From: Candidatus Woesearchaeota archaeon
GTDB lineage: Archaea > Nanobdellota > Nanobdellia > Pacearchaeales > GW2011-AR1
Direction: 5' to 3'
Length of the DNA stretch: 24,000 nt
Assembly: GCA_964497435.1 (NCBI GenBank)
Contig: CAZCCD010000004.1
Span: forward strand, 93,922-117,921
Shown here: piece after piece, positions 10,847-17,379 of the stretch
Position numbering within the stretch: position 1 is the stretch's first letter
How the letters are laid out: each line of letters starts with the position of its first letter
Notes under the pieces: model-generated
The model's input: only the letters and a program-made list of their open reading frames with translations
Databases searched by the model: none
Told to the model about the DNA's origin: nothing
Program-made: the position numbers and the translations under genes

Positions 10847-11725
10847 ATGGATAAAAATGAAATTATAAAGGCTGGGAAAATAGCTGTTGAGGTTAAGAAA
10901 TATGCAAGGGAAATTTTGAAGAAAGACGTTAGCTTATTGGAAATTGCTGAAAAAGTAGAAAGCAAGATTTTTGAGTTAGGAGGAAAACCTGCTTTCCCTG
11001 TTAATCTTTCAATTGATAATATTGCTGCACATTACACTCCTTCTCACGATGATAAAAGTAAAGCTCGTGGCTTATTGAAGGTTGATTTTGGAGTCCATAT
11101 TGATGGATGGATAGCTGACACTTCTTTTAGTGTTGATTTGGAAGATAATGAAGAAAACAAAAAACTCGTTATTGCATCTGAAAAAGCACTTGAAAATGCT
11201 TCAAAAAAAGTGAATAGTGGAATAAAAGTCGGAGAGATTGGAAAAGTTATTCAGGAGACAATTGAAGACGAAGGTTTTTCTCCAATTGTAAATCTTTCAG
11301 GACATCAAATAAATCATTATGAGTTACATTCCGGAGTAACAATACCTAATATTGATGATAATAGGAATGTTAAATTTGAAGAAGGTTTGTATGCTATCGA
11401 GCCCTTCACATCAACAGGTCTTGGTAGAGTTCATGACGGAAAACCCTCTGGAATTTATGAATTAATTAGCGAGAAGAATGTTAGGAGTACAATCGCCAGA
11501 GAAGTCTTGAGTTTTATTATTGAAGAATATAAAACCCTGCCTTTTTGCTCAAGGTGGCTCTTTAAGAAATTTGGAGCTAAAACATTTTTTGCGTTAAGAC
11601 AGCTAGAAGAAAATGGAAATTTAAGACAATTTAACCAGTTAGTTGAAATTCAAAATGCGAAGGTTAGTCAGGCAGAAAATACTTTCCTTATTGAGAAAGA
11701 TAAAGTGACAGTTATAACTCAGTAG
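10847..11725 (+). CDS. map: Methionine aminopeptidase, type 2 (archaeal).
   Basis: The length (292 aa) fits. Metal-ligand and substrate motifs are in the right order: AHYTP, DFGVHIDGWIADTSF, SGHQI..YELHSG, YAIEPF, SQAENT. Confidence 0.9.
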   Translation: MDKNEIIKAGKIAVEVKKYAREILKKDVSLLEIAEKVESKIFELGGKPAFPVNLSIDNIAAHYTPSHDDKSKARGLLKVDFGVHIDGWIADTSFSVDLEDNEENKKLVIASEKALENASKKVNSGIKVGEIGKVIQETIEDEGFSPIVNLSGHQINHYELHSGVTIPNIDDNRNVKFEEGLYAIEPFTSTGLGRVHDGKPSGIYELISEKNVRSTIAREVLSFIIEEYKTLPFCSRWLFKKFGAKTFFALRQLEENGNLRQFNQLVEIQNAKVSQAENTFLIEKDKVTVITQ

Positions 11726-12149: not shown

Positions 12150-15100
12150 CTATCCAAGATAACTGCTTTCTGCAGGAACAGCTGCTTTGACTGCTTTTAG
12201 ATAATTGTCTTCGACTTTTTTGTATACTTCTATTGTTGATTTTGTGATGCTTGGTTTTATTTTTTTCAATGCTTCTTCAAAGTGAGAAAGCTTTACTTGC
12301 TTTGCTTCTTTTGATTCTCTCAAGGCGAGCATTCCTGCCTCTCTCACTACAGCCTCTAAATCAGCTCCGGTATATCCTTCTGTTTTCTTTGCGAGTTCTT
12401 TTAATGAGATGTTTTTTGCCAGAGGCATTTTTTTTGTATGAATCTCAAGTATTTTTAATCTTCCTTCTTCTGTTGGCGCAGTGACTAAAAGTATTTTGTC
12501 AAACCTCCCTGGTCTTAATAATCCAGGATCTAGCAAGTCTGGCCTATTAGTTGCACCTATTACTAAAACATCTTTTAGATCTTCTAAGCCATCCATTTCA
12601 GCAAGCATTTGATTTAAGACTCTTTCTGTAACTTTTGTTCCTGCTTCTAGGCCTCTTCTTCCTGCAAGTGCATCTATTTCATCAAAAAATACTATACAAG
12701 GAGCAACCTGTCTTGCTCTTTCAAATACTTTCCTCATTCCTTCCTCACTTTCACCAACCCATTTACTTAGCAATTCAGGACCCTTAATCTGGATAAAATT
12801 AGCCTCTGATTCTTTTGCGACAGCCTTGGCCAAGAGTGTTTTTCCTGTTCCAGGAGGGCCATAAAGAAGTATTCCTCTAGATGGTCGTATCCCCATTCTG
12901 TCAAAACCCTCTGGAAATTTAAGAGGCCATTCAACAGCTTCTTTCAATTCTTGTTTTACTTTTTCTAGACCACCAACATCTTCCCAACCAATATTTGGGG
13001 TTTCAACTAAAACCTCCCTCATTGCACTTGGCCTTACTACTTTTAAAGCATCCATAAAATCATTATGTTTGATAATTAATTTTTCCAGCATTTCAGGAGG
13101 AATCTGCTCTTCTTTGTCTAATTTCATTTCAGGAAGCAGTTTTCTTAGAACATTCATTGCAGATTCTTTTGCGAGAGCTTCAAGATCGGCTCCAACAAAA
13201 CCATGTGTTAATGAAGCTATTTCATATAACACTGCTGGGATTGACTCTTTTCTTACTATATCAAAATATTCTTTAGATAACACGTTTGAATCCTGTAGGT
13301 CATTTAAAATCTCAAAAACTTGTTTCTCACTTTCAGACAAATTTCTTTTTAAAAAAATGCTTCTAGGATCATTTTGTCCTCTTTTAGCGAGAGAATCCTT
13401 TAATACACATATCTCTTTTATCAACTCAATTAGAAGTTGTTTATTATTCTTAAATTCATCACTTCTTTTCCTAACTACTAATATGTCTTTCCTTATTTTA
13501 TCTATTTGACTTTCAGAATCTTTTACATCTTTGGTAATTGTTTGTATACGCTTTTCTAAAGTAAGAATTTGATCGTTCAAATCATCTATATTTTCTCTTA
13601 GTTTTTTTAATTCACTTTTTTTTAGTCTAAACAGCTCTAATACTTCTGAGAGGTGAAATTTTCTTTCATATTCTCTTTCTAACGTTCTAAATTCATTCTC
13701 TAATCTTTTTAACAACAGACTTTTTCCTTCAGAATCAGAATTTAAATCCTTTAATTCTTTACTTTTATCTTTTTTCTCTTTAGAAATCTTCTCTATTTTT
13801 TCTGCTAACTTTGATATCTTAATATTTGAATTTTCTTCAAAAGAAGATAATTCATTTAAGAAAACTTTTTTAGAGATATTAATATCCCAAAAATCAAGAG
13901 GCATTCCTCTTGTATGAATTTGCAAAATTTGTAACCTTCCATTTTTATCCGGGACTCCTACTTCAATCTCTCTATCAAATCTCCCAGGCCTCCTTAAAGC
14001 AGGGTCAAGTGCATTTACTCTATTTGTTGCCCCAATTACAATTACTTTTCCTCGAGATTTTAGGCCATCCATCATAGTTAATATCTGGGAGACGACTCTT
14101 CTTTCGACTTCTCCAGAAACATCTTCACGTTTTGGTGCAATGGCATCAATCTCATCTATGAAAACTATTGCTGGTGCTGTTTTCTCAGCCTCTTCAAAAA
14201 CATCTCTAACTCTCTTTTCACTCTCTCCATAGAACTTAGAATTATGCATTAAAAAATAAGGAGAAGCAGTAAAGCTGTCTTTATCAACGGTAAAATCATA
14301 CAATTCCATTTTGCCGAGAGGAGTTAAATTATCTACTCTCTCCCATGCAATATCATTTCTAAGCAAAGTGTTAAACTCTTTTTTCACAGCATCATTTACA
14401 ATGTTGTGTTCGACCGCCAAATCATAAAGAACTTTTAATGAATGTTTTGTAGCCTTATCAGTTTTATAAATATAATAATCTTTATTTCTATAATTTTTAT
14501 AAGGAATTCTTTTTATCTCTTCTATTAATAAGGAAGGGTGAGGTATATTCTCATACTCTTTCACTCTTATAACTTTTTCTATTTCTTTCAAAGCAGCTAA
14601 TTTATGTTTGCTTACTGCACCAATTTGCAAAAATTTAACTCTTCCTTCATTACCCCTAACAACTAACTTATACATTAATCCTTTTGGTGTATGATGTTCT
14701 GCTAATTTAGTACTTATACCTAATTTTAATAGCATCAATGACTGTAATTGGGATAAAAACTCCTTTTTAACGCTATAAAGATAAGGTGTTGGATAGATCA
14801 TATTCTTTACTTTTATTTTCATAACTGTTCCATCCCCATCAAAATATCCTCTAATAAAAGACTCAATTTCATTTTTTGGAAGGGTGAAGAAATAACTAGG
14901 AATATGTTCCTTATTTTCACTCGTAAACTTTAGTAGTCTTAGATATTCTACTAAAAGTTTTGAATAAACTATAACCCCAAACATCTTCCCCTTATTTTTT
15001 TCCTTAAAATTATCAATATTGAAAACCCTCTTAACGAGAAACTTAAAACGTTCTATTAATTCAATATTATTGTTATAAAAACCAATCGAGTCATCTTTTC

Positions 15101-16493
15101 CAGAGATATTCCCATCAGAAACTATTAAACCTAACAATTCTAAAAGCTCTGAAGATGTTTTTTTGGGAAGCTTGATAAAATTACTTCTTGAAAGGTTTAT
15201 ACTTTTAATAGCGAAATTACCATCTTTCTCTGTTAAGCTGAATTTTTGATGCAGTTCACTTAACGGGACATTAAAACTAGATTCCTCTAAATCTATTTTA
15301 TTTAACCTGGCAACAAAATCTCCTTTATTTAGGTTTCTCACAGCCTCCCAAACTAACTCTCCGTTTCTATAAACCAAAAACGGCTGATTTTCAGAAGCAA
15401 TAATTTCGTTTCCGTCGCTTAATTCTAATTTAAAAGACTCTGCCTCTAATTTCGTAACATGTGTGATGTTGGCTTTCTCTATTTTGCCGTCCTTAAATGA
15501 ATATGTGCTGATTGGCTTATCAAGTTTTTTTAGAATATAATCTCTAAATTTTTCATCTTTTCCTTCTTGTAGATAAATCTGTTTAGCCTTTATATATCCA
15601 TCAGGATTTGTTAAGACTTGTGTTTCTCCAGAAACACACATTACTTCTGGCCCGTTTAACAAAATAAAATTAGCATCTGTTTCGTTTGCGACTGCCTTGG
15701 CCAAGAGTGTTTTTCCTGTTCCAGGAGGACCATGGAGTAAAACTCCTTTTGGAGGCTCTACACTTAACCTTTCAAATATTTCAGGATGTTTCATAGGTAT
15801 CTCAACCATTTCTCTTATCTTTTTGACCTCATCATCTAATCCACCAATGTCTTCATAAGTTATTTCAGGGATTTTTTCTTCAGAGATTTCGACTGCTTTT
15901 GGATTTAATGTTACTTCTGTGTTTTCTGTGACAATACATGGCTGGCTTGGAGAGATATTCACTACGAGAAATTTTATTTGTGTTATTCCTCCTCCAAGAT
16001 TTCCAAATCCCATATTGTTTAACATTTCTCCAAACAATCCGCTGAATTCATCATCCATTGACTCAGAGAAGAGATCTCGTCTTCTTTGGACTCCGCCAAG
16101 GACAACTATATCTCCTTTAACTATTGCCCTTCCTAAAAGCCCTCTTCTTAAACTATTAGAGTCAGCCTGAATCATTATGCCTTTTTGAGCAGGAGCAATA
16201 ATTACTTTTTTAGCTTCTTTAATTTCAACTTTAGAAACAGAGACAACATCTCCTATACCTGTCCTTGCATTTCTCCTTAGTATTCCATCTATTCTTATTA
16301 TTCCTTCTCCAACATCTGCAGGATAGGCCCTATCAGCTATTGCAATTGTTTCTTTATTTCCTTTAATCAAGATTACATCTCCTCTTTTTATACCTAGTTC
16401 TCTCATGATTTCAGAATCTATTCTTGCTATTCCTTTGTATGCATCATCTTGCAATGCTTCAACAACCTTTAACTGAACTTTTTTTTCTGTCAT
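12150..16493 (-). CDS. cdc48: Cdc48/VCP-like AAA+ ATPase (N-D1-D2) interrupted by an intein and carrying a coiled-coil insertion.
   Basis: N-domain present ([28 protein letters not shown]). D1 has Walker A GPPGTGKT (aa 255-262) and Walker [11 protein letters not shown]2 has [37 protein letters not shown]. The 1447-aa length is explained by a 466-aa intein plus a ~220-aa insertion. Confidence 0.95.
13230..13895 (-). other. ~220-aa K/E-rich coiled-coil insertion in the Cdc48 D1 alpha-helical lid subdomain.
   Basis: Canonical Cdc48 reads HTR.MPL(~10 aa)[11 protein letters not shown]. Here HTRGMPL (aa 860-866) and [13 protein letters not shown] (aa 1091-1103) are separated by heptad-like sequence: [23 protein letters not shown]...[42 protein letters not shown]... 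Confidence 0.8.
14241..15638 (-). mobile_element. Full-length intein with a LAGLIDADG homing-endonuclease domain, in Cdc48 D1.
   Basis: The extein junction NGPEVM|C...HN|SKFYGESE restores the conserved AAA motif GPE.MSK.YGESE. Block A is CVSGETQVL and blocks F/G are [19 protein letters not shown] followed by +1 Ser. The two LAGLIDADG motifs are [12 protein letters not shown] and [12 protein letters not shown]. Length is 1398 nt (466 aa). Confidence 0.9.
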
Positions 16494-16850: not shown

Positions 16851-17027
16851 TTAATTTCCTCCTAAATTATACACAATATTGTAACAACTTTTACATGTTT
16901 GTCCTGCTCCTTCTACATATCCTTCTCTTAACCTTATTGGGGTTTCTATAAGTATATTTATTGGATTATGACATAAGACACATTCTTCAAATCCTAATTC
17001 TTCAAAGATTCTGTTTTCTTCTTTCAT
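16851..17027 (-). CDS. Small zinc-ribbon protein (58 aa) that is absent from the ORF track.
   Basis: My translation: MKEENRIFEELGFEECVLCHNPINILIETPIRLREGYVEGAGQTCKSCYNIVYNLGGN. It has a CxxC...CxxC pattern. A strong SD (atcAGGAGGaaaaATG) precedes it. Its stop codon lies 1 nt before the ATG of the next gene, and it overlaps the 3' end of the upstream gene by 26 nt, so packing is operon-like. Confidence 0.6.
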   Translation of the reverse strand: MKEENRIFEELGFEECVLCHNPINILIETPIRLREGYVEGAGQTCKSCYNIVYNLGGN

Positions 17028-17379
17028 TTTTCCTCCTGATTATTTCTCCAAAACTCAATGAAAGTCTGCCAGCTTCTTCAAAACATAGTTTAACCATGTC
17101 ATCCATTATTTTTTCCTGTTCTCTTATAAATGAGACTATTTCTTTTGGGATAGAGACAGCGTAACTGTTGCCTACTATCCTCATTTTTACTTTAAATTCT
17201 CTGTTTTTAAGGTTCATAAATTTATTGTATTCATCCTCATCAACAGGATGGATTATCTTACTTGAGCATTTAGGACATTCAATTGCCCTTAAATTGAAGC
17301 CGTTTTTAGAAATATTTATCTTTTGCATTTTCTCTTCGCAGTCTTTGCATAGTATTGCGTTGTCGAATATATCGGCCAT
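17002..17379 (-). CDS. Zinc-ribbon plus AbrB/SpoVT-like DNA-binding protein; putative transcriptional regulator or antitoxin-like protein.
   Basis: N-terminal CKDC...CPKC zinc ribbon. C-terminal KVKMRIVGNSYAVSIPKEIVSFI matches the swapped-hairpin AbrB/SpoVT pattern (r.vG.S..v.iPk.i). An SD aaggag precedes the ATG. Confidence 0.7.
   Translation of the reverse strand: MADIFDNAILCKDCEEKMQKINISKNGFNLRAIECPKCSSKIIHPVDEDEYNKFMNLKNREFKVKMRIVGNSYAVSIPKEIVSFIREQEKIMDDMVKLCFEEAGRLSLSFGEIIRRKNERRKQNL

What the first reader, a model, noticed from the sequence alone, without database searches (positions are those of the whole stretch)
13230..13895. ~220-aa coiled-coil insertion in the D1 lid of Cdc48, independent of the intein
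HTRGMPL and [13 protein letters not shown] are normally separated by about ten residues. Here they are separated by ~220 aa of K/E/L/I-rich heptad-like sequence. It has no intein, nuclease or repeat-protein motifs. A long antiparallel coiled coil projecting from each protomer of the hexamer would form a crown at the D1 periphery. That could be a built-in adaptor or substrate-recruitment arm, or a docking site for a partner such as the co-operonic small proteins. I do not recall this in characterised archaeal Cdc48/VAT.
Basis: partly seen in the sequence, partly recalled or inferred. Interest (0 to 1): 0.62.

Follow-up and report, generated by a model that had tools for sequence, protein, structure and literature searches.

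The report
Coiled-coil arm inserted in archaeal Cdc48
The only Cdc48 protein-unfolding motor of this tiny DPANN-type archaeon carries a real, selected 225-residue helical arm in the rim of its first ATPase ring, at the spot where the substrate-binding N domain docks; related archaea carry it patchily, and no function has been tested or, as far as I could find, described.

Summary
In the 1447-aa Cdc48/VAT gene (12150..16493, minus strand), HTRGMPL and [13 protein letters not shown] are 225 aa apart (window 13221..13895); canonical relatives have about 8.

The insert is an open, heptad-periodic, all-helical segment with native codon usage. It has no Pfam, PDB or intein signature. It is independent of the LAGLIDADG intein further upstream in D1.

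It replaces the loop equivalent to p97 residues 391-395, four residues after the N387 equivalent, at the N-D1 interface.

It is not unique:
- About a fifth to a quarter of Cdc48 genes in 200 sampled genomes of the same phylum are over-long. Of 19 fetched, 18 carry an insert of 34-268 aa at this loop.
- Methanoperedens, Archaeoglobaceae and Thermococcus also carry inserts there.
- The window's type has a conserved aromatic N-anchor, a length-variable coiled-coil stalk and an 'RGxxDPR...YFxxVRxxS' base. It occurs in Woese-, Pace- and Aenigmarchaeota and in Methanoperedens.
- It is scattered over the Cdc48 core tree: a single clade is rejected, and an insert-less relative is 84% identical in the core.

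The insert does not co-occur with the upstream small genes.

This scan has flagged the same kind of arm in at least six other genomes. I found no paper describing it.

Most likely it is an optional regulatory or recruitment arm beside the N domain. Function is inferred only.

The parts
12150..16493 (-). Cdc48/VAT gene, 1447 aa, the only CDC48_N gene in the 0.97-Mb genome
   Evidence: ORF. Pfam hits to CDC48_N, CDC48_2, 2x AAA and 2x AAA_lid_3. Single CDC48_N match in the genome.
15885..16475 (-). N domain (aa 7-203: CDC48_N plus CDC48_2)
   Evidence: Pfam.
14241..15638 (-). LAGLIDADG intein (aa 286-751) splitting D1 after GPEVM. A separate feature, not part of the arm.
   Evidence: Intein_splicing and LAGLIDADG_3 hits. 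Extein junction NGPEVM|C...HN|SKFYG.
13896..13955 (-). First D1 lid helix, ending in HTRGMPL. G863 aligns with p97 N387.
   Evidence: Motif position. The HMMER alignment places query residues 244-321 on p97 396-472, which gives the p97 numbering.
13818..13895 (-). N-terminal anchor of the insert (aa 867-892, DFWD + [17 protein letters not shown]). Conserved 'xxW[DE]..IA..L...L.SFE' motif.
   Evidence: Alignments A1 and A3: W is invariant in A1; some relatives have Y or F instead.
13386..13817 (-). Length-variable coiled-coil stalk (aa 893-1036). Possible turns at NSDSEG (aa 918-923), HLS (aa 947-949, approximate) and KDSES (aa 991-995).
   Evidence: Heptad test. AlphaFold helices aa 871-916, 921-989 and 994-1036, or aa 871-944 and 948-1037. 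The whole block is absent from M. nitroreducens L026 and expanded by repeats in P0009.
13221..13385 (-). C-terminal base of the insert (aa 1037-1091): RGQNDPRS, two short helices, then [12 protein letters not shown] running into lid helix IASLTHGF.
   Evidence: Consensus 'RGxxDPRxxF...GVISxDYFxEVxxES'. The D of DPR is invariant in A3 and A4.
12153..13220 (-). Rest of the D1 lid, the D1-D2 linker, D2 (with a canonical lid loop) and the C-terminal ...SYLG.

Best explanation
The segment is a translated, selected accessory domain: a helical 'arm' inserted in the loop between the first and second helices of the D1 lid of Cdc48.

Shown:
- It is in frame, heptad-periodic and predicted all-helical.
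- It has a conserved base: an aromatic N-anchor helix plus an RGxxDPR...YFxxVRxxS C-terminal module.
- Its coiled-coil middle varies in length, and relatives shorten, delete or expand it.
- It emerges four residues after the equivalent of p97 N387. In p97 that residue touches the N domain in the coplanar 'down' state.
- The genome holds this one Cdc48 and 20S alpha and beta subunits, but no PAN-like ATPase and no Hsp70.

Inferred:
- Six arms project from the D1 rim beside the six N domains.
- Because the arm replaces the loop that helps hold the N domain down, it most likely tunes N-domain position. That would tune the ATPase and unfoldase activity.
- It may at the same time give the sole proteasomal unfoldase a built-in surface for capturing substrates or partners. 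Soluble cofactors play that role in eukaryotes.
- The arm is optional. Near-identical Cdc48 cores lack it, other lineages carry unrelated inserts at the same loop, and the loop behaves as a permissive hot spot where arms are gained, resized and lost.
For: - Frame, composition and heptads.
- Native codon usage: GC3 of two-fold codons is 20.0% in the insert and 20.6% in the exteins (p=1.0).
- Helical models: pLDDT mostly 66-93 over most of the insert, falling to 42-62 near aa 1012-1051, and 51-89.
- Insert-only homology, composition-corrected: window vs G023 E=3e-20, vs P0007 3e-13, vs P0006 4e-11, vs the Woesearchaeota insert L103 (= P0002) 8e-11.
- Conserved edge motifs.
- Central block deletable (L026) or repeat-expanded (P0009).
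- Mapping to p97 391-395. An R155C/N387C disulfide locks the N domain coplanar with D1 and lowers ATPase activity (PMC3318706).
- Sole Cdc48. 20S alpha and beta present. No Hsp70. No strong second classical AAA; the others are RFC small and large subunits and one divergent 440-aa AAA.
- Distribution.
Against: - No experiment, no hexamer model and no partner.
- The two AlphaFold runs disagree on topology.
- Very close relatives do without the arm: the core is 84% identical to insert-less L033.
- The insert sequence is only 28% identical between two genomes of one family whose cores are 81% identical. That would also fit weak constraint.
- The N-domain link rests on transfer from p97, not on an archaeal structure.
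Confidence: 0.5

Rival explanations
1. Tolerated passenger. The D1 lid loop is a permissive surface site where helical, low-complexity sequence accumulates and is lost without specific function. Only folding compatibility is selected: open frame, amphipathic helices, ends that meet.
For: - Presence is scattered on the core tree: 19 changes among 93 rows, no more clustered than shuffled labels.
- At least four insert classes at the same loop have no detectable similarity to each other.
- Spacings range from 17 to 292 aa.
- Insert identity is saturated near 30% whatever the core identity.
- An unchecked first-reader note reports a low-complexity insertion in Kae1 of the same window.
Against: - Edge motifs are conserved from DPANN to Methanoperedens.
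- The two Methanoperedens inserts are 61-65% identical, as conserved as their cores at 62%.
- A 675-nt insert is kept in a reduced 0.97-Mb genome, in its only Cdc48.
- All three Thermococcus homologs retain an insert at this loop.
Confidence: 0.25
2. ClpB/Hsp104 M-domain analogue. A coiled-coil propeller on the first AAA ring would form a repressing belt round the hexamer and couple the motor to an Hsp70-type partner for disaggregation.
For: - Comparable position: the lid of the first AAA module of a double-ring unfoldase.
- Model 1 gives three long helices (46, 69 and 43 aa), which could form a two-bladed arrangement.
- Homologues share a turn motif at the first break.
- Archaea generally lack Hsp100 disaggregases (general knowledge).
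Against: - No Hsp70 in this 92%-complete genome.
- Foldseek on both models aligned only the AAA and lid parts to p97/Cdc48/VAT/Drg1 chains; no ClpB/Hsp104 chain was among the 50 listed hits of either search. The insert profile hit only generic coiled coils.
- The insertion point (between lid helices 1 and 2) differs from where I recall the M domain lies.
- Model 2 gives a simple two-helix hairpin.
Confidence: 0.1
3. Laterally exchanged cassette. This concerns origin and is compatible with any function. The arm would spread between Cdc48 genes by homologous recombination in the near-invariant flanks, rather than being ancestral and repeatedly lost.
For: - A single clade of class-A bearers on the core tree is rejected (delta lnL 653, p-AU 0.0005).
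- L025 (207 aa) and L062 (82 aa, unrelated insert) have nearly identical cores (support 100, branch lengths 0.07).
- Insert-less genes all keep the same canonical 11-12-residue loop, not ragged deletion scars.
Against: - Synonymous codon usage here is native.
- There are no terminal repeats or intein motifs.
- Window plus G023 as one clade is not rejected (p-AU 0.38), and G023 is the window's best insert match. Local vertical descent is therefore enough.
- The rows for the AU test were chosen after seeing the first tree.
Confidence: 0.15
4. Assembly chimera, frameshift artefact or untranslated intervening sequence.
For: None found. Reads could not be checked.
Against: - The frame is continuous.
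- Collinear homologous inserts occur in independent assemblies from NCBI, JGI, ENA and Logan.
- Conservation is at the protein level and codon usage is native.
Confidence: 0.02

Closest known systems
VAT / archaeal Cdc48 (Thermoplasma acidophilum; PDB 5g4f, 5g4g, 5vc7) and eukaryotic p97/Cdc48
   Same: N domain (CDC48_N + CDC48_2), two classical AAA modules with lids, and the same flanking motifs. These are the best PDB matches by sequence and by fold.
   Different: VAT has 17 residues and p97 about 12 where this protein has 229. No solved structure contains an arm at this loop.
Cdc48 homologues of Thermococcus (record LT900021.1; organism recalled from memory, no tool named it), Archaeoglobaceae and Methanoperedens nitroreducens
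   Same: Insert at exactly the same loop. Spacings are 72-75 aa in all three Thermococcus genes, 76 aa in one Archaeoglobaceae paralogue and 113 aa in one of four M. nitroreducens paralogues. The M. nitroreducens insert is the same class as the window's.
   Different: They are much shorter. The Thermococcus/Archaeoglobaceae class shows only a marginal similarity, confined to the C-terminal helix (hhalign P=0.005). The M. nitroreducens copy lacks the whole coiled-coil stalk.
ClpB/Hsp104 middle (M) domain
   Same: A coiled-coil accessory domain inserted in the small subdomain of the first AAA ring of a double-ring unfoldase, lying on the outside of the ring (general knowledge).
   Different: No sequence or fold match. 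The insertion point within the lid differs. No Hsp70 in this genome. Different AAA clade.
Vps4 beta-domain (lid insertion that binds the cofactor Vta1)
   Same: A lineage-specific insertion in the lid of a classical-clade AAA ATPase that serves as a cofactor docking site (general knowledge; an analogy for the recruitment reading).
   Different: That is a small beta domain at another lid position. No homology was tested or expected.

Membership tests
Cdc48/VAT/p97 (type II classical AAA) | N-terminal double-psi-barrel plus beta-clam N domain | tested here: met
   CDC48_N 92.5 bits and CDC48_2 36.6 bits, both above their cut-offs.
Cdc48/VAT/p97 (type II classical AAA) | Two AAA modules with Walker A and B, each followed by AAA_lid_3 | tested here: met
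   GPPGTGKT at aa 255 and 1212. DEID at aa 780 and 1271. AAA 306 bits over 3 stretches and AAA_lid_3 over 2 stretches. D1 is intact only after intein splicing.
Cdc48/VAT/p97 (type II classical AAA) | C-terminal HbYX motif for docking on the 20S proteasome | tested here: inconclusive
   The protein ends ...ESSYLG, with Tyr at -3 rather than -2. Relatives end YLG, YFG or YVG. 20S alpha and beta genes are present.
Cdc48/VAT/p97 (type II classical AAA) | Hexameric double ring with unfoldase activity | not testable with these tools
   No multimer modelling or assay was available.
ClpB/Hsp104 M domain | Sequence or fold similarity to the M-domain coiled coil | tested here: not met
   Foldseek on both models aligned only the AAA and lid parts to p97/Cdc48/VAT/Drg1 chains; no ClpB/Hsp104 chain among the 50 listed hits of either search. 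The insert profile hits only generic coiled coils such as GCN4 fusions, Rad50, keratin and SMC.
ClpB/Hsp104 M domain | Hsp70 partner present | tested here: not met
   No HSP70 match in the genome, which is 92% complete.
ClpB/Hsp104 M domain | Two-bladed helix arrangement around one long central helix | tested here: inconclusive
   Model 1 gives helices of 46, 69 and 43 aa. Model 2 gives 74 and 90 aa.
Intein | N-terminal Cys/Ser/Thr, C-terminal His-Asn, +1 nucleophile, splicing blocks | tested here: not met
   The insert starts at D867 and ends at E1091, followed by Ile. The insert alone gives no Intein_splicing or Hint hit.
Class-A D1-lid arm (provisional group defined here) | Same loop; aromatic N-anchor 'xxW/Y/F[DE]'; variable coiled-coil middle; 'DPR' turn; 'YFxxVRxxS' helix into the lid | tested here: met
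   Alignments A1, A3 and A4. Insert-only BLAST E=3e-20 to 8e-11 against G023, P0007, P0006 and L103.

The most novel reading that the evidence does not exclude
The D1 lid loop of archaeal Cdc48 is a cassette site. Interchangeable built-in adaptor arms would be swapped between lineages by recombination. The long class-A arms would form a six-fold crown that gates the N domains and selects substrates for the Cdc48-20S machine. That would be the archaeal counterpart of the soluble p97 cofactors, and a convergent parallel to the ClpB M domain.
Probability: 0.15. Interest if true: 0.75.

Novelty: new variant of a known kind. Interest (0 to 1): 0.48.

Why it matters
How archaeal Cdc48/VAT chooses substrates, and how its N domain is regulated without ubiquitin adaptors, is an open question.

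This arm is large, conserved and optional. It sits exactly at the N-D1 interface, where human disease mutations act in p97. It occurs in an organism where Cdc48 appears to be the only proteasomal unfoldase. That gives a direct handle: natural arm-plus and arm-minus orthologues with more than 80% identical cores already exist for comparison.

It also shows that public annotation ('CDC48 family AAA ATPase') hides a widespread structural polymorphism.

Tried and rejected
- Pfam on the insert alone and on 13 homologous inserts: nothing above any cut-off.
- PDB by sequence, single and profile: only generic coiled coils.
- Foldseek on both models: only the AAA and lid parts aligned.
- phmmer against 1.84 billion representatives: about ten true hits plus one spurious repeat protein, P0005. 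The insert is too divergent for a sequence census.
The bacterial hits with long tblastn matches turned out to have the canonical 12-residue loop.
I repeated it on subsets of 40 and 30 rows.
- hhalign between insert classes: no significant relation.
- DNA repeats or terminal inverted repeats at the insert borders: none.
- Foreign-DNA signature: none in synonymous codon usage.
- Co-occurrence with the upstream small genes: rejected.
- Literature: six searches found no description.

Full report
**What is there.** The minus-strand ORF 12150..16493 encodes a 1447-aa protein. Pfam finds CDC48_N, CDC48_2, two AAA modules and two AAA_lid_3 lids. It also finds a LAGLIDADG intein (Intein_splicing and LAGLIDADG_3) in D1.
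- The intein runs from C286 to N751, with extein junction GPEVM|SKFYGESE.
- Further downstream, HTRGMPL (aa 860-866) and [13 protein letters not shown] (aa 1092-1104) are separated by 225 residues, at window 13221..13895.
- In 70 of the 93 Cdc48 rows compared in the core tree, the distance from MPL to THGF is 11-12 residues; here it is 229.
- The finding's coordinates and description are therefore correct.

**Is it real and selected?** Five lines of evidence say yes.
- The frame is open for 225 codons in a composition (45% A, 29% T on the coding strand) that predicts a stop every ten codons. P is about 1e-11, none of 20000 shuffles is open, and the other five frames hold 3-35 stops.
- Hydrophobic residues follow a heptad pattern. 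The a/d score is 0.50 against 0.27+-0.03 in shuffles (0 of 500 reach it), and power at period 3.5 has p=0.002.
- Synonymous codon usage matches the rest of the gene. GC3 of two-fold codons is 20.0% against 20.6% (p=1.0). The low GC of the segment therefore comes from its amino-acid composition, not from foreign DNA.
- No tandem or terminal repeats flank it.
- Collinear homologous inserts exist in independent assemblies. Insert-only BLAST with composition correction gives E=3e-20 to G023 (same family), 3e-13 to P0007, 4e-11 to P0006 and 8e-11 to the Woesearchaeota insert L103 (= P0002).

An artefact is excluded on this evidence.

**Anatomy.** Alignments of the long inserts (A1, A3, A4) show three parts.
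1. An N-terminal anchor, 'MPL-xxW[DE]xxIAxxLxxxLxSFE'. Some relatives have Y or F in place of W.
2. A central coiled coil of very variable length. It is wholly missing in Methanoperedens nitroreducens L026. It is 50 residues shorter in Methanoperedens L024. It is expanded by internal repeats in the Aenigmarchaeota protein P0009.
3. A C-terminal base, 'RGxxDPRxxF ... GVISxDYFxEVRxxS', which runs into the lid helix.

AlphaFold2 predicts the insert as all helix, but the two runs disagree on where the helices break.
- With 53 sequences (aa 752-1204, mean pLDDT 79.6), the helices are aa 871-916, 921-989 and 994-1036.
- With 9 insert-bearing sequences (aa 846-1166, mean pLDDT 75.5), they are aa 871-944 and 948-1037.

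The first break (NSDSEG, then SLLLKRL) matches a turn motif shared by homologues. The topology is still unresolved. It could be a single hairpin of roughly 100 Å or a two-bladed arrangement.

Foldseek aligned only the AAA and lid parts of either model to PDB chains. An insert profile hit only generic coiled coils. No Pfam family fits.

**Where it sits.** HMMER aligns the residues after the insert ([12 protein letters not shown]...) to p97 396 onward, and HTRGMPL corresponds to p97 HTKNMKL 384-390.
- The arm therefore replaces p97 residues 391-395, and G863 corresponds to N387.
- In p97, an R155C/N387C pair forms a disulfide that locks the N domain coplanar with D1 and lowers ATPase activity (PMC3318706).
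- The arm thus leaves the ring at the N-D1 interface.
- From memory, D395G and N401S are further disease positions in this loop.

**Distribution.**
- Among 60 relatives, G023 has the full-length collinear arm (226 aa). G054, G049 and G029 have inserts of 161, 86 and 97 aa. The other Cdc48 loci retrieved from these relatives have the canonical loop.
- In a sample of 200 further genomes of the phylum (all of the same class), 199 have a Cdc48. Of 144 listed full-length frames, 19 are 830-899 aa, 11 are 900-1100 aa and 10 are over 1100 aa.
- Of 19 over-long genes fetched, 18 carry an insert of 34-268 aa at this loop.
- Named records with inserts include Woese-, Pace-, Aenigm- and Micrarchaeota, Methanoperedens, uncultured Methanosarcinales and Archaeoglobaceae. 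Bacterial Cdc48-like genes have the canonical loop; one Patescibacteria gene has 23 residues.
- A complete genome that I recall as a Thermococcus (record LT900021.1; no tool named the organism) has 72-75-aa spacings in all three homologues. M. nitroreducens has the class-A insert in one of four paralogues.
- At least four insert classes show no significant similarity to each other.

**Evolution.**
- On a tree of the Cdc48 core with the insert removed, presence or absence needs 19 changes among 93 rows. That is no better than shuffled labels.
- The window's core is 84% identical to the insert-less L033.
- Holding the eight class-A bearers together costs 653 log-likelihood units (p-AU 0.0005). 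The caveat is that I chose the rows after seeing the first tree.
- Window plus G023 as a clade is not rejected (p-AU 0.38).
- Insert identity does not track core identity. Window and G023 are 81% identical in the core and 28% in the insert. The two Methanoperedens genes are 62% and 61%.
- L025 and L062 have nearly identical cores but unrelated inserts of 207 and 82 aa.

The pattern needs either many losses or lateral exchange of the segment. I cannot tell which.

**Context.**
- The upstream Zn-ribbon/AbrB gene and the downstream methionine aminopeptidase gene flank Cdc48 in more than 25 relatives whatever their insert state.
- The receiver-domain gene also follows Cdc48 in G023.
- P0002 has different neighbours. 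The arm does not co-occur with the small genes.
- The genome has a single Cdc48 and 20S alpha and beta subunits, but no Hsp70.
- It has no PAN-like AAA. The other AAA hits are RFC small and large subunits and a divergent 440-aa protein.

**Interpretation.** The best-supported reading is an optional accessory arm on the D1 rim beside the N domain. Its position makes a role in N-domain positioning, partner recruitment or substrate recruitment most likely.
- A ClpB-like Hsp70-coupled M domain is unlikely here.
- A merely tolerated passenger remains a serious rival.

**Prior knowledge.** Six literature searches found no description. Public records call these proteins 'CDC48 family AAA ATPase'.

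This scan has already flagged the same kind of arm on other DNA in at least six genomes, with similar verdicts. My tests here agree with those notes on patchiness and on the several unrelated inserts at one loop. They do not reproduce a foreign-DNA signature in this genome.

Noticed in passing
window 14241-15638 (-): Full-length LAGLIDADG intein splitting D1 just after the P-loop (GPEVM|C...HN|S). Ten of the 144 full-length frames listed in the phylum sample exceed 1100 aa (up to 2573 aa), which suggests inteins are frequent in these genes.
   Followed up: partly
window 17002-17379 (-) and 10847-11725 (+): The Zn-ribbon/AbrB-like 125-aa gene upstream and the methionine aminopeptidase gene downstream are syntenic with Cdc48 in more than 25 relatives (40-77% identity), independent of the insert. 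A conserved Cdc48 neighbourhood worth its own look.
   Followed up: partly
P0006 (1022 aa, Logan contig), D2 lid: Besides the D1 arm, this homologue has an insertion of about 90 aa at the equivalent D2 lid loop, between HTKDMPL and TEGFSGAD. It contains CxxC...CxxC (GNCRKCKK...HKCKKCGS), a probable zinc ribbon.
   Followed up: no
P0009 (Aenigmarchaeota, 1038 aa): Its 292-aa arm grew by internal tandem repeats (INSDKKKLLLELDR x2-3, NNIGGIENKLRSLE x3) near both predicted helix turns. This shows how arm length changes.
   Followed up: no
L025 vs L062: Two Cdc48 genes with almost identical cores (sister rows, support 100, branch lengths 0.07) carry unrelated inserts of 207 and 82 aa at the same loop. 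L025 is labelled 'Methanosarcinales' but groups with DPANN sequences, so it may be mis-binned.
   Followed up: partly
L022 / L129 (record LT900021.1, which I recall as a Thermococcus): A 495-506-aa Cdc48-like protein with an N domain and a single D1-like AAA module with a degenerate core. It carries the 75-aa lid insert and sits next to a MazE/PIN pair.
   Followed up: no
G000 contig C5 52632-53951 (L139): A divergent 440-aa single-module AAA protein with an altered Walker A (GVYGVGKT) and a Cdc48-like lid motif (EIHTRQRPI...TEGFSNRAIEE). The genome lacks a PAN-like ATPase and Hsp70.
   Followed up: partly
window 12153-12170 (-), C-terminus: The protein ends ...ESSYLG. Relatives end YLG, YFG or YVG. 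This is a Tyr-Hb-Gly tail rather than the textbook HbYX with penultimate Tyr.
   Followed up: no
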